Virus record (IMG/VR): IMGVR_UViG_3300029787_000026
Strand: one strand, 5' to 3'
Length of the DNA stretch: 64,000 nt
Origin: an uncultured virus (IMG/VR IMGVR_UViG_3300029787_000026)
Taxonomy: Duplodnaviria; Heunggongvirae; Uroviricota; Caudoviricetes; Crassvirales
A model generated the notes under the pieces. It was given only the letters and a program-made list of their open reading frames with translations. It searched no databases and was not told the DNA's origin. The translations under genes and the position numbers were made by a program. Shown one piece after another: positions 1 through 64,000 of the stretch; within the stretch, counting starts at the first letter, position 1, and every line of letters starts with the position of its first letter.

Positions 1-111
1 ACCTTCAAGAGGTTGGTCAGCTAGTTGCCAATCAACACTGTCTTCAATGATTTCTTTCATATGATCCGCTACACCTTGTGCAATCAAATCTAGTTCTTTC
101 ATTTTACTCAT
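1..111 (-). CDS. Hypothetical early protein, truncated by window edge (MSKMKELDLIAQGVADHMKEII...)
   Basis: ATG at 111, open to position 1; abuts the stop of the upstream ORF. Confidence 0.6.
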   Translation of the reverse strand, partial: MSKMKELDLIAQGVADHMKEIIEDSVDWQLADQPLEG

Positions 112-112
112 A

Positions 113-253
113 TTATTTAAATTTAGCTGCGACTTCATATATTTCTTCTTTGTCTTCTGAATCTAGTCCAGGTGTTTGAGTAGCGTACATACGTAGTACA
201 TAGTGTACAAAAGTGCAGTCGTTTTCTGTTAGTTTAAGTGTTTTAGTTGCCAT
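113..253 (-). CDS. 46-aa hypothetical early protein (MATKTLKLTENDCTFVHYVLRMYA...)
   Basis: Manual translation; below ORF-track cutoff; tightly packed with neighbours. Confidence 0.6.
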   Translation of the reverse strand: MATKTLKLTENDCTFVHYVLRMYATQTPGLDSEDKEEIYEVAAKFK

Positions 254-521
254 ATTCTATATTTTTATTACTTGTTACCATCCATTCACAGTTATTTACT
301 TTGTGACCTGCACCATATAAAAATGCTTCACAAGATTCTGTGTCAGGATTCCATTTGTTTTCGTCAGTACATAATGAGCTAATGTCATATCTATATACTT
401 TACCATCTGTAAAATCTAGTAAAAATATATACTTAACATATTTTTGCTCGTGTAGATTTAAGTCTTTTTTATAATTATTTTCTTCTTGCATGTCATGCCA
501 TGCGGTTATGGTATCGCTCAT
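243..521 (-). CDS. Hypothetical early protein
   Basis: 92-aa ORF overlapping neighbours on the same strand. Confidence 0.7.
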   Translation of the reverse strand: MSDTITAWHDMQEENNYKKDLNLHEQKYVKYIFLLDFTDGKVYRYDISSLCTDENKWNPDTESCEAFLYGAGHKVNNCEWMVTSNKNIEYGN

Positions 522-769
522 TGTTTTACTATTTGTTTTAATTGTTCTACACTATATCGTTTCTGATATTTCCACATACGGTTATGCGTGAACTTACGTG
601 CTTTGGCTCCGAAAGATTTCTTGCCAGGTGTGCGTACTCTATTGTACTCAGCAGCGGTAAGTCCACTACAATAACCTTCATGAGCATTTTTTAGCCGATG
701 CTCTTTGGCTACTTGTTTACGCTTGTTTTCAACATAAGCGCATAGTTCTTTCATACTAGTAACTACCAT
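518..769 (-). CDS. Basic hypothetical early protein
   Basis: 83-aa ORF, 4-nt overlap with downstream gene. Confidence 0.65.
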   Translation of the reverse strand: MVVTSMKELCAYVENKRKQVAKEHRLKNAHEGYCSGLTAAEYNRVRTPGKKSFGAKARKFTHNRMWKYQKRYSVEQLKQIVKQ

Positions 770-951
770 GGTAATAATGTTTTTTCTATGTAAGTTAAAC
801 CGTTGTAGTTAAACCATTGATATTTACCTTGTTTGTCGCCTTGTTGTTTAAAACCGAAGGAAGGAGGTAAATCGCCTACATTATAACCTTTGTAGGTAGT
901 ATTATTTAGTTTGATAGTAGTTTTATTAACTTGTTTGAATGTATTTTGCAT
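763..951 (-). CDS. Hypothetical early protein (MQNTFKQ...)
   Basis: Start moved to ATG 951 because the longer ORF overlaps the promoter at 967-995. Confidence 0.6.
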   Translation of the reverse strand: MQNTFKQVNKTTIKLNNTTYKGYNVGDLPPSFGFKQQGDKQGKYQWFNYNGLTYIEKTLLPW

Positions 952-966
952 AATTAAATTTATATT

Positions 967-995
967 ATTATCCAATAGATTTATTATTCTGTCTG
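967..995 (-). promoter_or_regulatory. Class I (early) promoter CAGACA-N17-GATAAT
   Basis: One of five copies with identical 17-nt spacing, each upstream of minus-strand ORFs. Confidence 0.75.
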
Positions 996-998
996 TGA

Positions 999-1079
999 TT
1001 AAACGTAACCACCAAGTAGTTCGAGTAAAGTTTCGAGTGTTATTTCACCCGCTTTGTACATATTTATCCAATCTTCCAT
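999..1079 (-). CDS. 26-aa micro-ORF (MEDWINMYKAGEITLETLLELLGGYV)
   Basis: Manual translation; packed behind the upstream ORF. Confidence 0.4.
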   Translation of the reverse strand: MEDWINMYKAGEITLETLLELLGGYV

Positions 1080-1081
1080 AT

Positions 1082-1219
1082 TTATTTTATATTAGTATCT
1101 TGATAGAATTTAATTTTTTCTTCGACATCTTGTCGAGTTATCTCACCTTGCATTTGTAGCAGTATCATACCGCTCAAATCTATTTGTTTACCATTTTGGC
1201 ATGTTAGTATGAATTGCAT
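1082..1219 (-). CDS. 45-aa early micro-ORF (MQFILTCQNGKQIDLSG...)
   Basis: Manual translation; AATAACT-ATG leader shared with ORFs starting at 1348 and 1780. Confidence 0.55.
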   Translation of the reverse strand: MQFILTCQNGKQIDLSGMILLQMQGEITRQDVEEKIKFYQDTNIK

Positions 1220-1225
1220 AGTTAT

Positions 1226-1348
1226 TTACTTTGAAGTTAATTTTTCTAGTTCAGTGATTTCTTTGTACACTTCGCGATATTGAACCCATCTGTCATTGTC
1301 TTGAAGAAAATCTAGTTTTTCGTATAGTTTTTGTAATTTTAATTGCAT
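1226..1348 (-). CDS. 40-aa early micro-ORF (MQLKLQKLYEKLDFLQ...)
   Basis: Manual translation; same AATAACT-ATG leader. Confidence 0.55.
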   Translation of the reverse strand: MQLKLQKLYEKLDFLQDNDRWVQYREVYKEITELEKLTSK

Positions 1349-1365
1349 AGTTATTTATTTTAATG

Positions 1366-1659
1366 TTAATCGCCTGTAAAATTATCCCATCTAGTCTTAG
1401 AATCGTAATAAGCTTGACACCCAGCGTCGTGAAGTTTAGCCATTTCTTTGTAGTGATCTTCTCTGTCGAAGTAATCATCTATCTTAGCAATAGCTTGTTC
1501 TTTAGTTTGAGCGGCTAGTTGTTGCACTCGTGGACTAGTTATTGCAAACGTTGGATGGTTAGTTATAGTATAACCACTTGCAGGTTTGCCATTCCAAGTT
1601 GTCCACTCATGATAATCATAGTCAACGCCTCTGTGTGTAAGTGTTTTTATTACGCTCAT
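1366..1659 (-). CDS. Hypothetical early protein (MSVIKTLTHRG...)
   Basis: ORF track 1366..1692; ATG 1659 directly follows the stop of the upstream micro-ORF. Confidence 0.7.
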   Translation of the reverse strand: MSVIKTLTHRGVDYDYHEWTTWNGKPASGYTITNHPTFAITSPRVQQLAAQTKEQAIAKIDDYFDREDHYKEMAKLHDAGCQAYYDSKTRWDNFTGD

Positions 1660-1660
1660 A

Positions 1661-1780
1661 TTAGTAGAATTTATAAACCACATCAAGTACAATTTCTCTC
1701 TGTTTTGTTGTGAGAAGGTTCCAATGTTTTCCGAACAAGCGAAACCCGACTTTTAACTTATATGTATTGATGTGAGACAT
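1661..1780 (-). CDS. 39-aa early micro-ORF (MSHINTYKLKVGFRLFGK...)
   Basis: Manual translation; downstream of promoter 1804-1832; AATAACT-ATG leader. Confidence 0.55.
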   Translation of the reverse strand: MSHINTYKLKVGFRLFGKHWNLLTTKQREIVLDVVYKFY

Positions 1781-1788
1781 AGTTATTA

Positions 1789-1974
1789 TTATTTATTTAT
1801 ATTATTATCCAGTTCTTCTTTGGTTTTGTTTGTAATAGGTTGGTTGAAAGGTGCTTCGAGTGTACCGAAGAGCAGTTCGTCGAAGTATTCACCTCTCGTT
1901 ATAAACCTATCTTGTAATTTACTGTAGTAAGCTCTACCCATAGATTCCGAATTGAATATTAGGGTCAACGCCAT
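1789..1974 (-). CDS. Hypothetical early protein
   Basis: 61-aa ORF; true start may be the internal Met (MGRAYY). Confidence 0.5.
   Translation of the reverse strand: MALTLIFNSESMGRAYYSKLQDRFITRGEYFDELLFGTLEAPFNQPITNKTKEELDNNINK
1804..1832 (-). promoter_or_regulatory. Class I (early) promoter CAAACA-N17-GATAAT
   Basis: One mismatch to the other four copies, same spacing. Confidence 0.65.
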
Positions 1975-2128
1975 TTACTATTAAGTTAATGACTAGTGCA
2001 AACCAACCGAAGATTGCTAGTGGTAGTAAGAAGCCGAAAGCAATTACTTCCATCACTACTTCTTGAATTGGTTTAGATTTTACATATTTAGTTACTGCAG
2101 GAATAAATCCTCTGAATTTAAATTTCAT
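1934..2128 (-). CDS. Small membrane protein
   Basis: 64 aa with hydrophobic stretch VIAFGFLLPLAIFGWFALVINLIV. Confidence 0.65.
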   Translation of the reverse strand: MKFKFRGFIPAVTKYVKSKPIQEVVMEVIAFGFLLPLAIFGWFALVINLIVNGVDPNIQFGIYG

Positions 2129-2147
2129 ATTATAGTTTTTAAGTTAG

Positions 2148-2251
2148 TGGATAAGAGAGGATTCGAACCTCCACGCCATACACAACTTACACTGCCAACC
2201 GAAGCCAGCTTGCAGCCATTGCATGATACGCTACTGTCCATGTAGTTACCC
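2148..2251 (-). ncRNA. tRNA-like RNA with D-arm, T-arm and acceptor stem but an about 60-nt arm instead of an anticodon arm
   Basis: GGGTAA/TTATCC-A acceptor; CTAC-ATGGACA-GTAG D-arm; GGAGG-TTCGAAT-CCTCT T-arm. Confidence 0.65.
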
Positions 2252-2257
2252 ATGTAG

Positions 2258-2332
2258 TAGTCGCAGTGAGAATCGAACTCACAAGTGATAGAGTTGGTAT
2301 TCGTCCATCGTTGTCACTTAACCATTACGACT
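2258..2332 (-). ncRNA. tRNA-like RNA lacking a D-stem
   Basis: 7-bp acceptor AGTCGTA/TGCGACT-A; ATGGTT linker; AAGTGA/TCACTT-based long arm; GTGAG-TTCGATT-CTCAC T-arm. Confidence 0.7.
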
Positions 2333-2446
2333 GTTTGCAAGGTGCTATCGACGCACTACTCCAAATTTCTTGCTAATCTGTTCAACATTATTTATAGTGG
2401 TGATGATACACATTTCAACGCGCCACTTAGTTAGTAGAAATACTTG

Positions 2447-2677
2447 TTACAATACTTCTACGTCACCTTGTAATACTCTTGGAATTGAAGTACTTGAAGT
2501 GTAAGACTTGTACTTTTCCCAGCAGTTTAACTTTGATAAGTTATCTTTCATTAGTTCATACACTTTGTCGTGATTGTAAGTGAAAGTCTTTCCGCTTTTG
2601 AATTCAACATTGATTACTTGGTTTTTACCGATTAGTGATTGTCTTACGACAAATCTTTTAGAATTTAATTTACTCAT
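2447..2677 (-). CDS. First substantial early gene, hypothetical protein
   Basis: 76-aa ORF directly downstream of two class I promoters. Confidence 0.75.
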   Translation of the reverse strand: MSKLNSKRFVVRQSLIGKNQVINVEFKSGKTFTYNHDKVYELMKDNLSKLNCWEKYKSYTSSTSIPRVLQGDVEVL

Positions 2678-2706
2678 GATATTTATTATTTATTAGTATT
2701 TATATT

Positions 2707-2735
2707 ATTATCCAATTAGTATTATATTTTGTCTG
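2707..2735 (-). promoter_or_regulatory. Class I (early) promoter CAGACA-N17-GATAAT
   Basis: Intergenic copy; TATATTATTATCCAAT...TGTCTGTGAT shared with 961-999. Confidence 0.75.
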
Positions 2736-2819
2736 TGATGAGTGTAGTTTTGTTTACTTATTTATTTTAGTTAGTATGTATTCCGCTTTGACTCTCATTA
2801 TCTAATTGATTACATATAT

Positions 2820-2848
2820 ATTATCCATTTATTGTAGTAATATGTCTG
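2820..2848 (-). promoter_or_regulatory. Class I (early) promoter CAGACA-N17-GATAAT
   Basis: Most upstream intergenic copy. Confidence 0.7.
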
Positions 2849-2861
2849 TAATATATTAGTA

Positions 2862-2889
2862 TGTCATTATGTCATGTGACAGATTGTCA
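2862..2889. repeat. Cluster of four TGTCA/TGACA pentamers
   Basis: TGTCA at 2862, 2870, 2885 and TGACA at 2877; same pentamer as the arms of the 43-bp element. Confidence 0.55.
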
Positions 2890-2926
2890 TAGTCTTATAG
2901 GAAAAGTCAGGAAGGCGGGGGCAAAT

Positions 2927-2979
2927 CGGGTCAAAAACGAGTATATACGCAGCGAAACCCGGAAAACAGGGTTGACCCG
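2927..2979. repeat. GC-rich inverted repeat at the divergence point of the two genome arms
   Basis: CGGGTCAA (2927-2934) / TTGACCCG (2972-2979); inner AACCC/GGGTT. Confidence 0.55.
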
Positions 2980-3065
2980 GTAAACTAAAACGAATTTTAA
3001 ATAAGAATTACAGAAAAAAAGGTGAGGTGCTACACTATACTCCTCTATACGTGATAACTTTTGTA

Positions 3066-3108
3066 TGACAGTAGCTATATATAGTATATAAGTAATAGGC
3101 TGTTGTCA
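3066..3108. promoter_or_regulatory. 43-bp dyad element TGACA-N33-TGTCA, putative operator copy 1
   Basis: Same length, arms and AGCCTATTACT core as 60520-60562, in opposite orientation. Confidence 0.65.
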
Positions 3109-3137
3109 CTATACGTCTGTAATACACGCTTATTAGT

Positions 3138-3166
3138 GTAAATTCGCTTCAAAACCTGTGAGTATA
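3138..3166 (+). promoter_or_regulatory. Class II promoter GTAAA-N15-GTGAGTATA
   Basis: Bipartite motif with fixed 20-nt offset, recurring before six operon starts. Confidence 0.55.
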
Positions 3167-3214
3167 TATAACTATGGTACGCACATGTAAAACATAACAA
3201 CTAAAAAAACAAAC

Positions 3215-5425
3215 ATGGCAATAATTTATTCATACCCTGAGATAGGAACTTTGGCAGCAGGAGACTTAATGCCAATAAGCGATATTTCAGACAATAACGC
3301 TACAAAATCCGTGACGTTAACTAAGCTTGCTACGTACTTTCAAGGGCAGCAAGCAGCTAACGTATTAGACATTTCTTCAAACAATGGTACTACGGGCAGC
3401 ATAGACTTGGCTTCACAAGTGCTTAATTTCACTGGCGGTTTATTAATTAACACAGCTATCGACCCAGACTTAGGTCAGAACGTAACAATCAATCACAACA
3501 CAGTAGGAAGAACAAATACAGGTGGTCAAACAGACTTACAATTTGGCCAAGAATTTGATGTAATTAATTCCGTAACAACGGATTCATCTGGTCATATTTC
3601 TGGTGTAAATGTTGAAACGTTTCTAATGCCAGCTGAACCATCTGGTACTGTTTCAGGAACTGGTACTACAAATAATATTGTAAAATGGACAGCAGGTGGT
3701 CAAGGTGTTATAGGTGATTCACAAATTATAGAAAATTCTAATGGAATAACTATTGATCCATCTAGTAAAAACGTAGGTATAAACAAAGCTGCTAATTCAA
3801 ATTTTGGATTAGACGTTGAAGGTGTAGTTTCTTTTAGAAAAGGATTAATAATTTCTAACAACCCTGCTAACCCAGTAGTAAATGAAACATCAGCAATAAT
3901 AGGCGCGGGAAGTAATGATATAATATCAGGATCTGATCATTGTTTAACTGTAGGTGAAAACAATCAAATCACTGATAATTCAGATAGATCCGTATCTTTT
4001 GGTGTAGGTAACACCACAAAGTCATCCGTCAACGCAGCAGTTGTAGGATCTGGTAACGTATTAAAATACTCAACTAACTCTCATATAATTGGATTAAATA
4101 ATGTAATGGGTTATGATATTGGGGCTAATACAGCTGGTCTTAATAACTCTATAATAATTGGTTCAGACAACTTACTTACTACTCAAGATGGAAGCGCGGC
4201 TCCTCCAAGTGGTGGGCTAAGCTTTGTTATAGGGCATGACAACGATTTAAAACATACAGAAACAAATTCATTTACTTTTGGGTATAATGTAGCAAATTTA
4301 GGAGGTCAAACAATCTCTCATAGAAACGATTTTAACATTGGTGGAGATTTAAGTGCCACAAATGAATGTATGACCTTAGGTTATAGAAACGATGCAAGCG
4401 AATATCCATCTCAAAATAATCCTGCTGGATTAGGTAAAACAAAATTTGTAGTTGCCACAGGAAGTAATAATAGCGATGATGCAAACGCGTTGATGATAAC
4501 AGAGGGTGGAGTTTTTGTAAATGCTGTAAAACAAGTACCAAGAGTATCATTACCAACGGTTCCAACATTCGCATTTAACAATGATGACACAGCTTTAACC
4601 AGTGGTATACCATACGGCGGTTTGTATAACAGCGGTGGTTTTGTTAAAATTCAAAGATCAAACAATATAGCGCTTAGCGTAACAACTGTTGGTAGTGGAT
4701 ACAATGAAGGTGATACTTATAGCACGACAGCAACCACAGGAAGTGGATTTGGTTTAACTATATTAGTAGATGAAATACTTAGTGGTTCAGGCATCGATAC
4801 CTTTAGTGTTGTTAATCCAGGTGAAGGTTACGCTGTTGGTGATACAGTGGCTGTAGCCGGTGGCGCAATTCTTACCGTAACAATAGGAAACACAGTATCT
4901 TCTAATTCTTTATATACTGGAGATATTTATTTTAACAAAAATTTCCCAACAAATCCTAACTGGTCTATTATAGAAACAGCGGCTAACGACTTAGAAATAA
5001 AAACCACAGGTGGTATAGCACTTAATGTAACAACCGCTGGTACTGGATATAACGAAGACGATATTTACAATACCTCAACAAGTGGTAGTGGATCCGGTCT
5101 TAGAATAAAGGTTTTAGAAATAGACAGCAATTCAGGAGTAACAGCCTTTAGTGTAGCATCAGGAGGCGAAGGTTATGTTGTTGGTGATACAGTAACTCTT
5201 ACAGGAGGCGGTAGCGGTGGCAATAGTGTTCTAACTGTAACAGTTGGTTCGGCTTCGGATTTAATAGTAGATACTGGATCGGGTGACCCTTGTAATTTGT
5301 TAATAAAACGTGGGGATGTAAGTGTTTTAAACTCCAACAAAGGACTTGTGTTAACGGCTCCTAATGGAGATAATTATCGAATAAAAGTTGATAACAGCGG
5401 AAATCTTACAACTACTCTAGCATAA
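3215..5425 (+). CDS. Tail fibre/spike protein
   Basis: G/N/S/T-rich; [IV]GxxN beta-roll repeats; duplicated GxGY...GEGYxVGDTV module. Confidence 0.75.
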   Translation: MAIIYSYPEIGTLAAGDLMPISDISDNNATKSVTLTKLATYFQGQQAANVLDISSNNGTTGSIDLASQVLNFTGGLLINTAIDPDLGQNVTINHNTVGRTNTGGQTDLQFGQEFDVINSVTTDSSGHISGVNVETFLMPAEPSGTVSGTGTTNNIVKWTAGGQGVIGDSQIIENSNGITIDPSSKNVGINKAANSNFGLDVEGVVSFRKGLIISNNPANPVVNETSAIIGAGSNDIISGSDHCLTVGENNQITDNSDRSVSFGVGNTTKSSVNAAVVGSGNVLKYSTNSHIIGLNNVMGYDIGANTAGLNNSIIIGSDNLLTTQDGSAAPPSGGLSFVIGHDNDLKHTETNSFTFGYNVANLGGQTISHRNDFNIGGDLSATNECMTLGYRNDASEYPSQNNPAGLGKTKFVVATGSNNSDDANALMITEGGVFVNAVKQVPRVSLPTVPTFAFNNDDTALTSGIPYGGLYNSGGFVKIQRSNNIALSVTTVGSGYNEGDTYSTTATTGSGFGLTILVDEILSGSGIDTFSVVNPGEGYAVGDTVAVAGGAILTVTIGNTVSSNSLYTGDIYFNKNFPTNPNWSIIETAANDLEIKTTGGIALNVTTAGTGYNEDDIYNTSTSGSGSGLRIKVLEIDSNSGVTAFSVASGGEGYVVGDTVTLTGGGSGGNSVLTVTVGSASDLIVDTGSGDPCNLLIKRGDVSVLNSNKGLVLTAPNGDNYRIKVDNSGNLTTTLA

Positions 5426-10708: not shown

Positions 10709-12262
10709 ATGTCAGATAAGATTGTAAAAAATCTTAACTTTGGTGATGAAGCCAAAGAAAAGATATTCAACGGTATAGATAAACTCACTAAAGCTGTTAG
10801 CTCCACTCTTGGGGCTAGCGGCCAGTGTGTTATACTGGAGAATCAAAACGGAAAACCTATTATAACAAAAGACGGTGTAACTGTTGCAGAGTCTATTGTT
10901 TTGTTAGACCCTGTAGAAAATATGGGTGCTACACTGCTAAAGCAAGCTGCTAAACAAACAGTACAAGAAGCAGGTGATGGAACAACTACCGCGACAGTAT
11001 TAGCTCATGCTATATTACATGAAGCTAGTAAAAAAGAAGGTAGTGTAAGAGAAATAAAAGAAGGTATTAACGATGCTGTTAATCAAGTTATAGAATACTT
11101 AGAAGACAATGCGATAAAAGTATCTGGAGATACTATTGATCAAGTTGCTACAATATCTACTAACAACGATGAAAAGTTAGGTAAAATAATAGGTAAAGCT
11201 TTTAAAGCTGTAAATGAAACAGGAGTTGTTATAATGGAACCAACTACACATAATGAAACTAGTGTAGAAATTGTAGACGGTGTTCAATATAATAAAGGCC
11301 TTATAAATGATAACTTTATTACTAGTAAAGAAAAAAGAGTTGCTGAGTTAGAAAACCCTTGGGTGTTAATAATTGAGTCACCAGTAAACACTATTAGACA
11401 AATACAAAGTGTGTTAGAGTTTGTAATAAAAAATAACAAACCTCTACTTATTATAGGTGATTTAGAACCACCAGTGGTATCAGCACTTGCTATGAATAAA
11501 GTAAAAGGAAATATAAAAATTAATGTTGTTAATGCTCCTACTTATGGTATTAATAAAAAAGACACACTTAATGATCTTTCAATATTAACTGGAGCTACAG
11601 TTATAAACGAAGAGCTAGGTGATGATTTAACTATTATACAACAAGAGCATTTAGGACAATGTATAAAAAGCAGTACGAATGATAACGAAACTATTATACA
11701 AGTTGATACATCTAATAGCGAGGTTCAAGAGTTGGTTAAAGAAGTTAAAAAACAACTGGAAGAAGCTGGTAGCCCAGGTGAAATCATTCAGCTTGAAAAA
11801 CGCCTTGCTCGTCTCTCCGCTAAAGTGGCTGTTGTCAAAGTTGGAGCCAACTCAGAAGTAGAGTTAAAAGAAAAAAGTGATAGAATAGAAGATGCTATAT
11901 GCGCTACAAAAGCAGCTGTTAAAGAAGGTATAGTTGCTGGAGGTGGTGTTGCTTTGTATGATGCTTCTCTTTTTTTAGTAAAAAAATCAGAAGGACATAT
12001 GGCTTTATTAAAAGCTTTAACATATCCTTTTACTACTATATTAGAAAACGCTGGTTTAGTTGACTATAACAAACCAACAGGAAATGGTACTGGTATAAAT
12101 GTAATAACCGGTGATGAAGTAAACATGATAAAAGAAGGTATAGTAGATCCTTTACTTGTAACTAAAAGCGCTTTAAAAAACGCTGCATCAGTTGCAACAA
12201 CTATATTATCTACAGATTGCGTTATTAACAATTTAAGAGTTGGAGATGAAAGCAATAGGTAG
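10709..12262 (+). CDS. groEL: Chaperonin GroEL (phage-encoded)
   Basis: ITKDGVTVA, AGDGTTTATVLA and EGIVAGGG motifs; no C-terminal GGM tail. Confidence 0.97.
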   Translation: MSDKIVKNLNFGDEAKEKIFNGIDKLTKAVSSTLGASGQCVILENQNGKPIITKDGVTVAESIVLLDPVENMGATLLKQAAKQTVQEAGDGTTTATVLAHAILHEASKKEGSVREIKEGINDAVNQVIEYLEDNAIKVSGDTIDQVATISTNNDEKLGKIIGKAFKAVNETGVVIMEPTTHNETSVEIVDGVQYNKGLINDNFITSKEKRVAELENPWVLIIESPVNTIRQIQSVLEFVIKNNKPLLIIGDLEPPVVSALAMNKVKGNIKINVVNAPTYGINKKDTLNDLSILTGATVINEELGDDLTIIQQEHLGQCIKSSTNDNETIIQVDTSNSEVQELVKEVKKQLEEAGSPGEIIQLEKRLARLSAKVAVVKVGANSEVELKEKSDRIEDAICATKAAVKEGIVAGGGVALYDASLFLVKKSEGHMALLKALTYPFTTILENAGLVDYNKPTGNGTGINVITGDEVNMIKEGIVDPLLVTKSALKNAASVATTILSTDCVINNLRVGDESNR

Positions 12263-12506
12263 AAACATTTTAATACAACCAGAAAAACAAGGTACAGAAA
12301 AAACTAAAGGTGGTTTACTTTTAGCTGAACAACAAAGGGTAGATATAAGATACCAAAAAGGTTTAGTTGTAAGTGTAGGAGATGTGGTTTGTGGTATTAA
12401 AGAAAACGATAAAATATTCTACGATAAAAGCGCTAATCATAAAATTGATATAGATGGTGAAAATTATTGCATTGTAAAAGATACTGATGTAGTAATTGTG
12501 ATATGA
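12246..12506 (+). CDS. groES: Co-chaperonin GroES
   Basis: KTKGGLLL mobile loop, GxVVSVG; overlaps the groEL end; ATG at 12246. Confidence 0.9.
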   Translation: MKAIGRNILIQPEKQGTEKTKGGLLLAEQQRVDIRYQKGLVVSVGDVVCGIKENDKIFYDKSANHKIDIDGENYCIVKDTDVVIVI

Positions 12507-22303: not shown

Positions 22304-24740
22304 ATGAATATATATACAAATCCAAATAGTTCTTTCCCTAGTCAGGTGGTACCAGACGAAGAGAAAAGCACAATGGAATATGGATTAGCAGTTGCTAGAG
22401 CTATAGAAGGTGAATGGTGGGCTGGTGATAGAGGTCTTGGAGCAGCCGGTAGGTTTGGAAACAACTGGCAGTATTTTAATTCTTTAAGATTATATGCTAG
22501 AGGAGAACAGTCAGTACAAAAATATAAAGATGAGTTATCAATAAATGGTGACTTAAGCTATTTAAATCTTGATTGGAAACCAGTACCTATTATACCAAAA
22601 TTTGTAGACATATTAGTAAACGGTATGTCATCAAAAGTTTACGATATAAAAGCTTTTGCTCAAGATCCTGAATCTGTAAAACAAAGAACAAATTACGCGG
22701 CTGGTTTAATGCGTGATATGTACGGTAAAGATTTATTAAACGAAACAAAAGAAAAAACAGGTTTAGATTTTTACACAGTAACAGATCCTGATTCTTTACC
22801 TGAATCTCAAGAAGAAATTGATTTACATATGCAATTAACTTATAAGCAATCTGTAGAGATAGCTGAAGAAGAGTTAATAGAAAATGTGTTACAAAGAAAT
22901 AGATACCAGTTAACTAAAAGAAGATTACTTCAAGATTTAGTTGTATTAGGTATAGGTTGTAGTAAGACTAGTTTTAACTTAGCTAACGGTATTAATGTTG
23001 AATATGTTGATCCTGCTAACTTAGTTTATTCTTACACTGAAGATCCTAATTTTGAAGATATATACTATGTAGGTGAAGTTAAACAAATAAGTTTAGAGGA
23101 ACTAAAAAAACAATATTCTTATTTAACACCTGAAGACCTAAAAGAAATAGAAAAATTCCCTGGTAATTCTAATTTTAGAAATAATTACTATGGTCAGTAT
23201 GATAATAACAATACTGTAAACATTTTATATTTTGAATATAAAACATATCAAGATCAAGTTTTTAAAATTAAAAGATCTGAAAATGGTTTAGAAAAAGCAT
23301 TAGAAAAACCAGATACTTTTAATCCTCCTAAAAATGACAACTTTGAAAGAGCGTCTAGATCAATAGAAGTTTTATACTCAGGAGCAAAAATACTAGGCAT
23401 GGATAAAATGCTTAGATGGGAGTTGGCAAAGAATATGACTCGACCAATGAGTAATATAGCTAAAGTAAACATGAACTACAACATATGTGCTCCTCGTATG
23501 TATAAAGGTAGAATAGAATCAACCGTTAGTCGTATTACAGCTTTTGCTGATATGATACAAATAACACATTTAAAATTACAGCAAGTATTATCTCGTATGG
23601 TACCAGATGGTGTTTTTGTAGATGTTGATGGTTTAGCAGAAGTTGATTTAGGTAATGGAACAAACTATAACCCACAAGAAGCTTTAAACATGTACTTCCA
23701 AACTGGTAGTATTGTTGGTAGAAGTTTAACACAAGAGGGTGATCCTAATAGAGGTAAAGTACCTATTCAAGAACTACAAACAAGTAGTGGTAACGCTAAG
23801 ATAGCTAGTTTAATACAAACTTATCAGTATTATTTACAAATGATTAGAGACGTGACCGGATTAAATGAGGCTAGAGATGCTAGTACTCCTGAAATAGGTT
23901 CGTTAGTTGGTTTACAAAAATTAGCAGCTGCTAATAGTAATACAGCTACAAGACACATTTTACAGTCTTGTTTNNNNNNNNNNTTGTTTGTATTTAACTT
24001 TACGTAATTGTGAAAATATAGCATTACGAGCGGCAGATGCTTTAGCATTTCCTTTAACAAGACAAGCTTTAGTTGATTCAATATCTATGTTTAATACAGC
24101 TACTCTTGGTGAGTTAATGGAAAAACAATTAATGGAGTTTGGTATATACTTAGAACTAGAACCAGATGAAGAAGAAAAAGCCATGCTAGAGCAAAATATT
24201 CAAATGGCTTTACAGCAACAAAGTATAGATTTATCTGATGCTATAGATTTAAGAGCAATAAAAAACCTTAAATTAGCTAATGCTAAATTAAAAATAGCTC
24301 AGAAAAAGAAAAGAGAAAGAGATCAACAAGCTCAAATGATGAATATACAAGCACAAGCTAAAGCCAATGCCGAAACATCAGAAGCAGCTTCTTTAGCTGA
24401 AATGCAAAAACAACAAGCTTTAACAGAATCTAAAGTTCAAATAGAGCAGGCTAAGTCTCAGTTTGAAATACAACGTATGCAAACAGAAGCTGAAATTAAA
24501 AAGCTTTTAATGGCTGAAGAGTTTAATTATAATATACAACTAGCTCAAGCTCAAATGCAGGCTGCTAAAACTAAAGAAAAAGAAATAGAAGATCGTAAAG
24601 ATAAAAGAGTAAAAATAGTGGGTACACAACAGTCACAAATGATTGATCAAAGAAAGAATGATACATTACCTACAAACTTTGAGTCAGCTGGGTTTGATAA
24701 TCTAGATGGCTTTGGCTTAGAGCAATTTGAGCCGCAATAA
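22304..24740 (+). CDS. Portal protein (one gene split by an assembly gap at 23974-23983)
   Basis: Follows the terminase; PIIPKFVDILV, TGLNEARD and Q-rich coiled-coil tail; TTGTTT flanks both sides of the N run and merging gives QSCLYLTLR in frame. Confidence 0.85.
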
Positions 24741-61717: not shown

Positions 61718-62540
61718 AATTTCTAATACATTTAAATAGCGGGTGTCTGTATGAACCTGCTTTTGTTCTTTGAAAATAAGTAAAGGTAGCACGCTTGCCA
61801 ACATAAGAGTCTATTTCACTGAGCATTTTAGCTAAATCCTTGTAGGAATAACCTTTACCCGGCGGACAACCGAACTGTATACCTTCGTCATCTAGCATAA
61901 TGAACTTGCCTAACGTGCCTGTCCTTTTACCTTTACCTAATTCATAACCTATAATAGTTGCTTCAGTATCGCTGAAGTCTTTAAATTTCATTAAGTCGTA
62001 AGACCTACCGTGTTTGTACAGACCATCTAGCCTTATGATAGAGCCTTCGTAACCTTGATCAAGGAACTCAGCGTGTATATCTCTAGCGTAATTGTAACTG
62101 TCAACAAGTCTAGCAGGTACATATTTGACCTGAACATCATAAATGTCTGAGTTAACAAGTTGTTGCATACGTGTTTTATAGTTGTCATATTTGTCATCTA
62201 TATAGTCGTACACGTGAAACTGTACAAGATGTTGAGCATCACGCCTGTCATCTGTTGTAGGTTTTTGCTTACGAACTAATGATATAATCTTTTCAAAATC
62301 GCGTTTTAGCTTGTGGTTGTATAATTCGCCGTCAAGTACTATGTCAGGATGTTTTTTAAAGAACGGTATTAAAGCAAGCTCAATGTGAGCTAGATTCATA
62401 AACTTTTTACCTGTTCTTGAAAAACCACCGTCTTTAGTTAATAGGCATCTGACACCGTCAAGCTTGGGTTGTATATACACAGGTTTAGACCAGTCAACTC
62501 GACCGTCATCAAACTTGTGTGCAAGCATAGGTTTTATCAT
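61710..62540 (-). CDS. ATP-dependent DNA ligase
   Basis: QPKLDGVR, LDGELY, VYD, YEGSIIR, LMKFK, RHP.F...R. Confidence 0.93.
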   Translation of the reverse strand: MIKPMLAHKFDDGRVDWSKPVYIQPKLDGVRCLLTKDGGFSRTGKKFMNLAHIELALIPFFKKHPDIVLDGELYNHKLKRDFEKIISLVRKQKPTTDDRRDAQHLVQFHVYDYIDDKYDNYKTRMQQLVNSDIYDVQVKYVPARLVDSYNYARDIHAEFLDQGYEGSIIRLDGLYKHGRSYDLMKFKDFSDTEATIIGYELGKGKRTGTLGKFIMLDDEGIQFGCPPGKGYSYKDLAKMLSEIDSYVGKRATFTYFQRTKAGSYRHPLFKCIRNYE

Positions 62541-62809
62541 AGGTTTTTTAATTTTAATTCAATTTTAGTTATTCTCATTTTCACAATAGCACATTTTTCG
62601 TACTCTTGTCTGTCTTCTAGCATAGCTAGTTGTGTTTGTAGTCTGGCTAATTCGCCAACTAATATTTCTTCTTGATTTGAAGTAAAGTTTAATGGGTAAA
62701 TGTCACCGTATTTATCTATAATACGAGCAAATACTAAATCAGTTAACTGATCTATATAATCATCAAATCTATTTAAATCAAACATTTCATTATTATTATC
62801 CAAATTCAT
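62537..62809 (-). CDS. Small protein with C-terminal UVR-like helical hairpin
   Basis: LAMLEDRQEYEKCAIVK; start may be ATG 62785. Confidence 0.55.
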   Translation of the reverse strand: MNLDNNNEMFDLNRFDDYIDQLTDLVFARIIDKYGDIYPLNFTSNQEEILVGELARLQTQLAMLEDRQEYEKCAIVKMRITKIELKLKNL

Positions 62810-62823
62810 TTATATTTTGTCTG
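62795..62823 (-). promoter_or_regulatory. Class I (early) promoter CAGACA-N17-GATAAT
   Basis: Fifth copy; upstream of the ligase-HTH-sigma block. Confidence 0.7.
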
Positions 62824-63316
62824 TAAATAAGCTAACCAATTTATTAGCGTAATATAAACCATCTTTTTTATCTGCTTGATTCCACCTGGTTTCACCATTA
62901 GAAAAATCAGTGTATTCCATATCGTTCATATACTTAGATATAATTTTTTCTGGTTTTAGTACAAACACATTGTAGCTATTGTAATTATCCCAACAGCTAA
63001 CCCATCTATCTTGTTTACCTGACCATATAATATAAGTATAATGATGGTCAATATGCATTGGATCAGCGTATAGATAGCAGCTGTCATAGTACATATCATG
63101 AACTAATTTAGCAGCTAACCTGCTACCGTCTTGACTAGGATTAGTATGTAGCCAATTAGCTATCTGCACACCTTGCCACTCAGGGTAACCATCGTGGTGT
63201 AAATACATGTTTACATAGCTTTTGTCACTGAAAACAACAGGGTTTTCTGCAAAACCAAGCTCTGATTCTTCAGCGTGTTTACGGTCTACGACCATAGTTA
63301 AATTTCTAGTTGCCAT
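62810..63316 (-). CDS. Conserved phage protein with MATR...YxHxDGYP motif
   Basis: YLHHDGYPEWQG. Confidence 0.75.
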   Translation of the reverse strand: MATRNLTMVVDRKHAEESELGFAENPVVFSDKSYVNMYLHHDGYPEWQGVQIANWLHTNPSQDGSRLAAKLVHDMYYDSCYLYADPMHIDHHYTYIIWSGKQDRWVSCWDNYNSYNVFVLKPEKIISKYMNDMEYTDFSNGETRWNQADKKDGLYYANKLVSLFTDKI

Positions 63317-63512
63317 TTTCTTTTGATTTTTGTTCGTTATAATCTACAAAGAAGCCTATTGCCACTATAACGTGTAGCAATAAACTCGAAATAATTTCAT
63401 ATAAATCATGAAAAGAGTGTACAGATAAATGAATATGCCCCACCATCCAAAAAGGTATGGCAAGGTTTTGACTTATCCATATTACAGTATATTTTAAAAA
63501 ATTATTCTTCAT
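63306..63512 (-). CDS. Small membrane protein
   Basis: Two hydrophobic segments around a His-rich loop. Confidence 0.6.
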   Translation of the reverse strand: MKNNFLKYTVIWISQNLAIPFWMVGHIHLSVHSFHDLYEIISSLLLHVIVAIGFFVDYNEQKSKENGN

Positions 63513-63699
63513 AATTTTCTAGTATTCCTTCAATTTCAGGTTCTAGGTTAGTAATTTCTTTTGCTAGATCTAAAAAGTGAGAAAGAGCGTTGACTTCATA
63601 GCTACTAAGCTCATCTGTTTCTCGATCTTCGATCGCGTTTATGCAATCTCTCATGTCTGTGACGGTGTTTTCAAACCGACAGTAACTCATATTTGGCAT
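63502..63699 (-). CDS. Conserved small phage protein (NMSYCRFENT)
   Basis: 65 aa; starts just after the tRNA. Confidence 0.7.
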   Translation of the reverse strand: MPNMSYCRFENTVTDMRDCINAIEDRETDELSSYEVNALSHFLDLAKEITNLEPEIEGILENYEE

Positions 63700-63718
63700 A
63701 ATTTATATTTAAAGTTAG

Positions 63719-63792
63719 GTGCGCCAGCAGGATTCGAACCTGCGACCTCTAGGTTATGAGCCTAGCGAGCTGACCAACTGCTCCACAGCGCA
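63719..63792 (-). tRNA. tRNA with CAT anticodon, initiator-Met-like, CCA not encoded
   Basis: TGCGCTG/TGGCGCA acceptor, GAGC/GCTC D-stem, CTAGG-CTCATAA-CCTAG, GCAGG-TTCGAAT-CCTGC. Confidence 0.92.
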
Positions 63793-63797
63793 ATTTT

Positions 63798-64000
63798 TTA
63801 GTCTAATAGTATCATGTATGCTCTAGCATTAGCTGATCTAAACCAGTCAAGACTTTTTTCAGTTAACTTCCAGTCTTGCACTAGTTGTGCACCCATTATT
63901 AAGTCATACATAGCTAACTCATTAGCTGTTAGTATAGCTTGTTCACCACTAAACGGATTAGTAACTAAATCACCTTCAGTATACTTAGCACCGTCATACC
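63798..64000 (-). CDS. Hypothetical protein, 5' end outside the window (...VTNPFSGE...DWFR..NARAYMILLD)
   Basis: Open frame from the window edge to TAA at 63798. Confidence 0.65.
   Translation of the reverse strand, partial: YDGAKYTEGDLVTNPFSGEQAILTANELAMYDLIMGAQLVQDWKLTEKSLDWFRSANARAYMILLD

What the first reader, a model, noticed from the sequence alone, without database searches (positions are those of the whole stretch)
2148..2251. tRNA-like RNA A: tRNA elbow and acceptor with a long arm instead of an anticodon
Seen (minus strand): acceptor GGGTAA/TTATCC + A73, D-arm CTAC-ATGGACA-GTAG with GG, canonical T-arm GGAGG-TTCGAAT-CCTCT, and an about 60-nt irregular hairpin (core CTGC..AGCTG-GCTT-CGGTT..GCAG) where the anticodon arm should be. 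Its 3' trailer CTAACTT is identical to that of the real tRNA at 63719. Known: RNase P, the CCA-adding enzyme and T-loop modifiers read the elbow and acceptor, as in tmRNA and Y RNA tRNA-like domains. Inference: a processed non-decoding tRNA mimic made first in infection, for example a decoy for tRNA-targeting defence toxins or a ribosome/synthetase ligand.
Basis: partly seen in the sequence, partly recalled or inferred. Interest (0 to 1): 0.75.

Follow-up and report, generated by a model that had tools for sequence, protein, structure and literature searches.

The report
Anticodon-less alanine tRNA mimic of phage
A marine phage carries a conserved small RNA gene shaped like the top half of an alanine tRNA, with a long stem where the codon-reading arm should be, so it can probably be loaded with alanine but cannot read codons; what it does is untested.

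Summary
Window 2148-2251 (minus strand) is a real RNA gene, not a decayed or intron-bearing tRNA. I found it in 47 loci, giving 28 distinct sequences. They come in a long form (104 nt) and a short form (77-79 nt). Compensatory changes support the T stem, the base and tip of the long arm, and acceptor pair 6:67.

No anticodon is conserved. ARAGORN and Rfam give no tRNA call. The tmRNA model gives nothing for the window's copy and 15-19 bits for some relatives, against a threshold of 47.

The same phages also carry a second alanine-type element ('C'), 1.8-2.7 kb downstream. C scores 34-38 bits on the tmRNA model, close to the published tag-less tmRNA of mycobacteriophage DS6A at 43 bits.

Best reading: a new family of non-decoding RNA that probably accepts alanine, loosely of the phage 'tRNA-like-domain-only tmRNA' kind. 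Function is inferred, not shown. This scan has noted the same general kind on other phage DNA.

The parts
2148..2251 (-). Gene for the tRNA-like RNA 'A' (104 nt; position p of the RNA = coordinate 2252-p)
   Evidence: sequence. The covariance model R1 scores it 124.5 bits. There are 28 distinct homologues.
2246..2251 (-). Acceptor 5' strand G1-A6, with G3 of the G3.U70 pair. C7 (2245) faces C66 as an invariant C.C, or belongs to the D stem.
   Evidence: pairs 1-5 are invariant. G.U at 3:70 holds in 28 of 28. Pair 6:67 is A-U in 24, G-C in 3, and other in 1.
2231..2245 (-). D arm CUAC-AUGGACA-GUAG with G13 G14 (counterparts of G18 G19)
   Evidence: Invariant in 28 of 28. There is no covariation, so the stem itself is unproven. 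Positions 11-21 were fixed by the search patterns. A pattern that left them free found the same 7 viral contigs.
2174..2230 (-). Long irregular arm in place of the anticodon arm (positions 22-78): base stems 22-24/76-78 and 27-32/70-75, an invariant internal region, and an apical C(UUCG)G hairpin
   Evidence: changes on both sides at 22:78, 28:74, 29:73, 31:71, 44:57 and 46:55. In the short form a 31-33-nt arm with a loop beginning GGAG (AGAG in 1 of 11) replaces it.
2156..2172 (-). T arm GGAGG-UUCGAAU-CCUCU
   Evidence: 3 of 5 stem pairs change on both sides. The loop letters U54 U55 C56 G57 A58 are invariant.
2148..2154 (-). Acceptor 3' strand UUAUCC plus discriminator A73 (2148)
2144..2147 (-). 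Trailer CUAA. CCA is not encoded.
   Evidence: CTAA follows A73 in 47 of 47 loci, while the sequence beyond it diverges. The genes for element C, the DS6A element and the tRNA-Met also have CUA here.
2391..2418 (-). Promoter-like TTGAAA-16 nt-TATAAA upstream of B and A (seen by eye, inference only)
   Evidence: A TATAAA word lies 20-30 nt before G1 in L003, L134 and L135, which lack B. The consensus scan did not call it.
2258..2332 (-). Optional second tRNA-like element 'B' (75 nt), 6 nt upstream of A. It is not alanine-type (A1-U72, U3-A70).
   Evidence: It lies in a 121-nt insertion (2256-2376) that L003 and contigs of two runs lack. ARAGORN calls it tRNA-Phe(GAA) only at relaxed thresholds.

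Best explanation
Window 2148-2251(-) encodes a stable, non-decoding tRNA-like RNA. It belongs to a previously uncatalogued family carried by marine podophages related to phages of Flavobacteriia.

It keeps the 'top half' of a tRNA: a 12-layer acceptor/T-arm stack, the G13 G14 and T-loop elbow letters, and the alanine identity set G3.U70 + A73. A long arm replaces the anticodon arm, and that arm can be swapped between a long and a short version.

Inferred mechanism, from established tRNA biology:
- It is transcribed with its neighbours.
- RNase P and a 3' endonuclease cut it out.
- CCA is added, because the gene has CUA there.
- Host AlaRS charges it with alanine.
- It cannot read a codon.

My best guess at its job, at about one chance in three, is that it acts like the tRNA-like domain of tmRNA. 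That would mean engaging SmpB, EF-Tu or stalled ribosomes without adding a tag, so as to modulate host ribosome rescue during infection. It may act alongside the more tmRNA-like element C of the same phages.

Shown: the conservation, the structure, the alanine marks, the lack of an anticodon, and the co-occurrence with C. Inferred: processing, charging and function.
For: - Family size: 47 loci, 28 distinct sequences.
- Structure: 9 of 36 pairs (long form) and 6 of 22 pairs (short form) change on both sides. 99.2% and 98.8% of cells pair, and 0 of 500 shuffles reach this.
- Alanine marks: G3.U70 and A73 hold in 28 of 28, while the neighbouring pair 6:67 covaries.
- Elbow letters G13 G14 and U54 U55 C56 A58 are invariant.
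- No decoding: no ARAGORN call with introns allowed. At relaxed thresholds the 'anticodon' differs between homologues (12 different calls).
- Not a protein: in 6 of 28 members the T loop falls in another frame of the overlapping ORF, or that ORF ends early.
- Distinct family: members score 80-125 bits on R1 and everything else at most 32.
- tmRNA link: the only Rfam family that aligns end to end with any A copy is tmRNA, at 15.3-19.1 bits.
- Co-occurrence: element C scores 34-38 bits on tmRNA and lies 1.8-2.7 kb downstream of A in 5 of 5 viral contigs with enough DNA.
- Operon-like layout: other tRNA-like elements sit 4-6 nt upstream of A in 4 of the distinct contexts.
Against: - No expression, ends, CCA or charging data. 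RNA-library contigs cannot show them.
- The window's own copy matches no Rfam family beyond T-arm fragments of at most 11 bits.
- A lacks the GG-UUCGAC and GGAC junction words seen in 10 phage tmRNAs and in the Rfam tmRNA consensus. It has instead a 4-bp Watson-Crick D stem. SmpB binding is therefore doubtful.
- The phages already have C, so a tmRNA-domain role for A would be redundant.
- The invariant 5' 23 nt could serve some other partner.
- The D stem and the inner part of the arm never vary, so they are unproven as pairs.
- Pfam found no SmpB, synthetase or CCA enzyme among 70 window ORFs, so there is no phage partner to point to.
Confidence: 0.55

Rival explanations
1. Decoy or sponge for host defence or toxin enzymes that act on the acceptor end or elbow of tRNAs. 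Examples, recalled from memory and not tested here, are enzymes that pyrophosphorylate, extend, acetylate or cleave tRNA 3' ends or T loops. The mimic would soak them up and spare the real tRNAs.
For: The top half is kept and the decoding half discarded. The element sits in a cluster of small, early-looking ORFs and is optional within the phage clade: L005, an elemovirus and phi46:3 lack it. The arm is swappable. Other tRNA-like minis occupy the slot just upstream.
Against: No defence system or target is identified. A general decoy would not need an invariant G3.U70 and A73, unless it must be charged. Nothing was tested.
Confidence: 0.2
2. A cis-acting processing signal ('tRNA punctuation'). 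The tRNA-like fold only recruits RNase P and a 3' endonuclease to cut the early polycistronic RNA and set the ends of the flanking mRNAs. The excised RNA itself has no job.
For: A lies between ORFs on the same strand. In 45 of the 46 loci where a downstream ORF could be read, the next start codon lies 7-51 nt after A73. The element moves among different early ORFs as a cassette. Tandem tRNA-like elements lie 4-6 nt apart.
Against: Punctuation needs neither alanine identity, nor an invariant 23-nt 5' region, nor a conserved covarying arm. A promoter-like word directly upstream suggests a gene of its own (inference).
Confidence: 0.12
3. An ordinary tRNA gene that is decayed or carries an intron, or a short protein gene (the 42-aa ORF 2125-2253).
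For: The T arm and 3' acceptor strand are identical to those of a real tRNA-Ser(TGA) of an unrelated phage. An ORF overlaps the element.
Against: Compensatory changes are seen across 28 distinct sequences. ARAGORN makes no call with introns allowed, and the relaxed calls disagree on the anticodon. No Rfam family, hence no group I intron model, matched at E<=10 beyond weak fragments. The ORF's frame is broken in 6 of 28 members.
Confidence: 0.03

Closest known systems
TLD-only (CDS-less) tmRNA of mycobacteriophage DS6A (JN698994 28478-28560; PMC4131195 and PMC11915505, passages read)
   Same: It is phage-encoded. It has an acceptor with G3.U70 and A73, a T arm, no anticodon and no tag reading frame. 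The gene has CUA where CCA would be.
   Different: DS6A scores 43.2 bits on Rfam tmRNA, against 0-19 for A. It scores 19.9 bits on the A model, against 80 or more for members. A has a 4-bp D stem, lacks the UCGAC and GAC junction words, and has a longer covarying arm. The phage lineage and host phylum also differ.
Element 'C' of the same phages (for example L003:1544-1645, L132:4365-4444), a tag-less tmRNA-like RNA
   Same: It shares the genomes and the strand. It has G3.U70 + A73, the CUAA trailer and a variable-length arm in place of the anticodon arm. Its D region AUGGUUAGAAGCU resembles A's AUGGACAGUAGCG (9 of 13 letters, by eye).
   Different: C scores 34-38 bits on Rfam tmRNA. It scores only 21.8-22.5 bits on the A model. 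It has no D stem.
Bacterial tmRNA (Rfam RF00023)
   Same: It shares the alanine acceptor, the T arm, a GG in the D region at the same distance from the 5' end, and a helix leaving the elbow where the anticodon stem would be.
   Different: A has no pseudoknots and no conserved resume codon or tag. The short form has no stop codon in its arm at all. A is 104 nt, against about 240-390 nt for the phage tmRNAs. It falls below the model's threshold.
tRNA-Ala
   Same: G1-C72, G2-C71, G3.U70, A73, a D stem, a canonical T arm and an un-encoded CCA.
   Different: A has no 5-bp/7-nt anticodon arm and no anticodon. There are no free positions 8, 9 and 26 if the D stem is real. Rfam's tRNA model does not match it.
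Stable tRNA-like RNAs of phage T4 (species 1 and 2), and the tRNA-like module of bacterial YrlA/Y RNAs (both recalled from memory, not examined here)
   Same: These are small non-decoding RNAs with tRNA-like parts, of unknown or non-decoding function. The T4 RNAs lie among tRNA genes.
   Different: In YrlA, as I recall it, the RNA ends lie at the opposite side of the tRNA-like module.

Membership tests
Canonical tRNA (Rfam RF00005 / ARAGORN) | Cloverleaf with a 5-bp anticodon stem, a 7-nt loop and a conserved anticodon | tested here: not met
   ARAGORN makes no call by default or with introns allowed. Relaxed calls give 12 different anticodons among homologues. No RF00005 match at E<=10.
Canonical tRNA (Rfam RF00005 / ARAGORN) | Acceptor stem plus T arm with a T-loop of the form UUCRANY, and a GG in the D loop | tested here: met
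   The acceptor has 6 pairs plus an invariant C7.C66.
tmRNA (Rfam RF00023) | Alanine identity G3.U70 with A73 | tested here: met
   28 of 28 distinct sequences.
tmRNA (Rfam RF00023) | Score at or above the curated threshold of the covariance model (47 bits) | tested here: not met
   The window's copy has no match at E<=10. Relatives score 15.3-19.1 bits.
tmRNA (Rfam RF00023) | mRNA-like domain: a resume codon, a conserved tag and an in-frame stop | tested here: not met
   The reading GCU GCA ... UAA in the long arm gives unrelated endings (LAV, SMA, SMT, SMK). It has an early UGA in the L132 and L136 types. The short form has no stop codon in its arm (read from the sequences).
tmRNA (Rfam RF00023) | D-loop analogue GG-UUCGAC without a D stem, and GGAC before the T arm | tested here: not met
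   Comparison with 10 phage tmRNAs and the Rfam consensus. A has GG-ACAGUAG and GGCGU, and a possible 4-bp D stem.
TLD-only / CDS-less tmRNA (DS6A type) | Little more than the tmRNA tRNA-like domain, still recognisable by tmRNA models | tested here: inconclusive
   DS6A scores 43.2 bits and C scores 34-38 bits. A scores 0-19 bits, though tmRNA is the only family that aligns with it end to end.
TLD-only / CDS-less tmRNA (DS6A type) | Binds SmpB and inhibits trans-translation | not testable with these tools
   This needs binding and reporter assays. The claim for a similar molecule comes from PMC4131195 citing Mao et al. 2009, which I did not see.
Intron-containing tRNA | A group I intron core, or exons that join into a decoding tRNA | tested here: not met
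   No intron family matched at E<=10. ARAGORN -i found none. The insert is only 31-57 nt and covaries as a hairpin.

The most novel reading that the evidence does not exclude
A and C together are a two-RNA phage device that rewires what happens at stalled or damaged translation complexes. C, the tmRNA-like domain, would occupy SmpB. A, a separately evolved RNA that probably accepts alanine and whose invariant 5' 23 nt reads a different partner, would deliver or withhold alanine outside normal decoding, or would shield the acceptor ends of host tRNAs from a defence enzyme. If so, anticodon-less alanyl-RNAs would be a general and so far unrecognised class of phage effectors.
Probability: 0.15. 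Interest if true: 0.85.

Novelty: new variant of a known kind. Interest (0 to 1): 0.55.

Why it matters
Phage tRNA genes are usually explained by codon supply. This is instead a maintained RNA that keeps everything needed to be processed and charged with alanine, and nothing needed to decode. It sits in the same genomes as a second, tmRNA-like alanine-type element.

The published record that I could find has one phage example of the kind, DS6A, plus a remark that such a molecule inhibits tmRNA. If families like this one are functional, phages have a wider toolkit aimed at the acceptor end of tRNA biology than is recognised. That toolkit could touch AlaRS, EF-Tu, SmpB, ribosome rescue or tRNA-targeting defences.

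The swappable arm and the invariant 5' half give clear handles for experiments.

Tried and rejected
- **BLAST of the region against phage records.** Near mode found nothing. Distant mode found only a 38-nt T-arm match to a Caulobacter phage tRNA-Leu.
- **The window's own assembly** is not held. The nearest record, G001, is a 17.7-kb fragment without the element.
- **Exact 24-nt search** found only an unrelated phage tRNA-Ser with the same T arm and acceptor strand.
- **** used a wrong spacer (9 N instead of 7). Its 4 hits were not used.
- **Tag-peptide reading** of the long arm: rejected. The endings are not conserved, some types have an early UGA, and the short form has no such frame.
- **Protein-coding reading:** rejected.
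- **Intron reading:** rejected.
- **Promoter and terminator scan:** 8 promoter-like sites against 6.9 expected, 0 terminators, and none at the TATAAA word.
- **RNA evidence.** I laid contigs of 4 runs labelled RNA. One, whose RNA label is a guess, spans A and its neighbours in a relative without B. One oligo-dT run covers 2229-2255 and then runs on into a variant arm. Two cover only the upstream ORF. Contigs show neither ends, strand nor level, and DNA carry-over is possible, so there is no verdict on expression.
- **Partner proteins.** Pfam on 70 window ORFs found no SmpB, synthetase, CCA-adding enzyme, integrase or reverse transcriptase. PHROGs gave nothing for the flanking small ORFs.
- **Cultured relatives.** The A model found only ordinary or unannotated tRNAs, at 24.9 bits or less, in 5 full records. 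Two of them had no match at all.
- **Bacterial and archaeal genomes.** There were 6 pattern matches, and none is a family member (at most 26.1 bits).
- **Literature.** A search for 'phage' + 'tRNA-like' + 'anticodon-less' found 0 papers. A search for 'Cellulophaga phage' + 'tRNA-like' found 2 papers, seen in the listing only. A catalogue of candidate structured RNAs from viral contigs (PMC10690425, passages read) mentions tRNA-like candidates. Its supplementary tables, which I did not open, could already contain this motif.
- **Earlier notes of this scan** on this genome: none.

Full report
**What the window is.** The window has about 34% G+C. Pfam finds a P22-like portal, a crAss-type muzzle domain, GroEL and GroES, ribonucleotide reductase, thymidylate synthase, an ERF recombinase and a DNA ligase. 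The portal's nearest relatives among deposited phages are podophages of Flavobacteriia and one uncultured genome. These are a Manatee Spring assembly (54% identity), Maribacter phage Panino (49%), Flavobacterium elemoviruses (44%), and Cellulophaga and Tenacibaculum phages (25-33%). Small ORFs on the minus strand fill positions 1-2677, and large structural genes start at 3215 on the plus strand.

**The observation.** Reading the minus strand from 2251 to 2148 gives four parts: GGGTAA...TTATCC with A73, CTAC-ATGGACA-GTAG, GGAGG-TTCGAAT-CCTCT, and about 57 nt between the D and T arms. The trailer CTAACTT also follows the only tRNA that the detectors call, tRNA-Met at 63718-63792.

The window alone would not convince:
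- The fold is no better than shuffles (z = -0.38).
- The T-loop word is not enriched (3 found, 2.56 expected).
- ARAGORN and Rfam call nothing here.
- Restricted to 2138-2256, Rfam returns only T-arm fragments of 11 bits or less.

**Homologues.** A neighbouring-protein search gave L003, whose neighbour protein is 82% identical. L003 has the element with three substitutions. Two pattern scans gave 7 viral and 54 metagenome loci.

Of the 62 loci examined, the window included, 47 carry the family signature, making 28 distinct sequences. Some contigs occur in both collections, so 28 is the safer number. I dropped the other 15 loci. They score at most 32.1 bits on the family model, against 80-125 for members.

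The patterns fixed positions 11-21. A third pattern, which fixed only the acceptor ends, returned the same 7 viral contigs. Six pattern matches in bacterial and archaeal genomes are not members. The run table labels the holders as marine or seawater metagenomes.

**Structure.** There are two forms: 17 distinct long sequences (104 nt) and 11 short ones (77-79 nt).
- Long form: RNAalifold predicts 36 pairs, and 9 change on both sides. These are 22:78, 28:74, 29:73, 31:71, 44:57, 46:55 and three T-stem pairs.
- Short form: 22 pairs, and 6 change on both sides, including acceptor pair 6:67.
- Counted against controls: 99.2% and 98.8% of cells pair, against about 93% in column shuffles (0 of 500 reach it) and at most 54% when partners are slid.
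- The 18 core pairs across all 28 sequences give 98.4% against 91.5%.

Three regions never vary, so they are unproven as pairs: acceptor pairs 1-5, the D stem, and the G.U-rich region 34-40/62-69.

The apex is a C(UUCG)G hairpin.

The arm is a swappable module. Loci with nearly identical flanking ORFs carry either the long or the short arm, for example L135 against L183. The short arm ends in a 9-nt loop that begins GGAG (AGAG in one of the 11 short sequences).

**It does not decode, and it is not a protein.**
- With introns allowed ARAGORN calls nothing. With thresholds lowered it names 12 different anticodons across homologues.
- The overlapping 42-aa ORF is not conserved. In 6 of 28 members the T loop is read in another frame, or the frame stops after 14-23 codons.
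- A tmRNA-like tag reading of the long arm (GCU GCA ... UAA) gives unrelated endings. Two sequence types have an early UGA, and the short form has no such frame.

**Alanine identity.** G1-C72, G2-C71, G3.U70 and A73 are invariant in 28 of 28, while the neighbouring pair 6:67 covaries. By established knowledge, recalled here, G3.U70 in an acceptor helix is the main determinant for alanyl-tRNA synthetase, and it works even in minihelices. RNase P, the 3' endonuclease, the CCA-adding enzyme, EF-Tu and the T-loop modifiers all read the acceptor/T-arm half and the elbow.

All of these features are present. The 6 acceptor pairs, the C.C mismatch and the 5 T-stem pairs make the 12-layer stack. G13 G14 and U54 U55 C56 A58 are invariant. 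The gene has CUAA after A73 in 47 of 47 loci, so CCA would have to be added.

Processing and charging therefore follow from the sequence, but they were not observed.

**Relation to tmRNA.** A broad scan for the 3' end word found three things in viral contigs: tRNA-Ala genes, full phage tmRNAs, and many short elements of 63-146 nt with a tmRNA-like 5' end and no tag.

In the phages that carry A, a second alanine-type element, C, lies 1.8-2.7 kb downstream, just before the tRNA-Met. This holds in 5 of 5 viral contigs with enough downstream DNA. Two of these are near-identical to each other, and two further contigs end too early to tell.

| Element | Bits on Rfam tmRNA (threshold 47) |
|---|---|
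| C | 34-38 |
| DS6A TLD-only tmRNA | 43.2 |
| A, relatives' copies | 15.3-19.1 where a full-length match was listed; L003, L134 and L136 not listed at E<=0.01; T-arm fragments only in L131 and L138 |
| A, the window's copy | no match |

Compared with 10 phage tmRNAs, A lacks the GG-UUCGAC and GGAC junction words and has a possible 4-bp D stem instead. So A works like, and perhaps descends from, a tmRNA tRNA-like domain, but it fails the membership tests.

In the window C is not seen in 1-3300 or 62500-64000. By synteny it would fall just beyond position 1.

**Context.** A sits in the small-ORF cluster, most often after a 76-aa ORF ending ...KYKSYTSSTS... and before a 64-aa membrane ORF starting MKFKFRGF. 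In some loci it lies between other ORFs of the same cluster, so it moves as a cassette.

A TATAAA word lies 20-30 nt upstream of G1 in relatives. This was seen by eye and was not called by the scan.

In the window a 121-nt insertion (2256-2376) puts a second, non-alanine tRNA-like element B 6 nt upstream of A. L136, L173 and L191 have other mini elements 4-6 nt upstream. This tandem layout resembles a tRNA operon.

Pfam finds no SmpB, synthetase or CCA enzyme in the window.

**Function.** Nothing tests it here. I rank the possibilities as follows.
1. A tmRNA-domain-like RNA that probably accepts alanine and acts on SmpB, EF-Tu or stalled ribosomes: about one in three. In support, PMC4131195 (passages read) reports that a TLD-like molecule strongly inhibits tmRNA, perhaps by titrating SmpB.
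2. A decoy for enzymes that attack tRNA acceptor ends or elbows: 0.2.
3. A mere processing signal: 0.12.
4. A decayed or intron-bearing tRNA, or a protein gene: 0.03.

The co-occurrence with C argues that A is not simply the phage's tmRNA-domain gene.

**Novelty.** The published kind is the tag-less tmRNA of DS6A and the CDS-less tmRNAs of organelles (PMC4131195, PMC11915505; passages read). My literature searches found no description of this family. Earlier notes of this scan describe the same general kind in at least eight other phage genomes. This is therefore a new family and variant of a barely described kind, not a new category.

Noticed in passing
window 2258-2332 (-), within insertion 2256-2376: Element B is a 75-nt tRNA-like gene with acceptor AGUCGUA/UGCGACU, a good T arm and no alanine marks, 6 nt upstream of A. 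It is absent from L003 and from contigs of two runs. ARAGORN calls it tRNA-Phe(GAA) only at relaxed thresholds, with C where U33 should be.
   Followed up: partly
L003:1544-1645(-), L005:1297-1388(-), L131:4413-4533, L132:4365-4444, L213:251-333(-), L215:5776-5858: Element C is a tag-less, tmRNA-like alanine-type RNA of 80-121 nt. It scores 34-38 bits on Rfam tmRNA (threshold 47) and lies just before the phage tRNA-Met. It was not seen inside the window.
   Followed up: partly
L136 and L191, 4 nt upstream of their A copies; L173, 6 nt upstream: Further optional mini tRNA-like elements lie in the slot before A. In L136 a 45-nt unit is made only of an acceptor stem, a 13-nt linker and a T arm.
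   Followed up: no
L054, L017, L119, L056, L020, L121 and about 50 more loci: Many viral contigs hold elements of 63-146 nt with a tmRNA-style 5' end (GGG..GGUUUCGAC), a closing hairpin, a T arm and ..UCCA-CUAA. ARAGORN calls neither a tRNA nor a tmRNA for them.
   Followed up: no
L048, L067, L103, L107; L037, L026, L041, L052, L046; MW202828.1 523-630: These are other uncalled tRNA look-alikes. One has a normal 5' half and T arm with a 65-nt A+T-rich insert in the anticodon loop. Several have tRNA-Leu-like 5' halves followed by arms of 60-100 nt. The one in MW202828 lies directly after a zinc-ribbon ORF.
   Followed up: no
L157, L161, L164, L169, L185: Another uncalled tRNA-like family inside phage tRNA clusters shares the D-region word CAUGGACAGUAG with A. 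It scores only 18-32 bits on the A model.
   Followed up: no
PP540027.1 67843-67923(-); NC_021796.1 37020-37109(+): These unannotated stretches in Maribacter phage Panino and Cellulophaga phage phi38:1 read by eye as class II tRNAs (anticodons GUA and UGA).
   Followed up: no
window 10709-12262 and 12240-12506 (+): The phage encodes both GroEL-like (Cpn60) and GroES-like (Cpn10) chaperonins.
   Followed up: no
window, about 23980-24070: The window contains N letters (masked or unknown bases) near the end of the portal gene.
   Followed up: no
window 63718-63792 (-) against window start: In relatives the order is A, small ORFs, C, tRNA-Met. In the window tRNA-Met lies at the far end, which fits a circularly permuted assembly of about 64.5-65 kb that the window nearly spans (related contigs measure 64,561 and 64,857 bases).
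   Followed up: no
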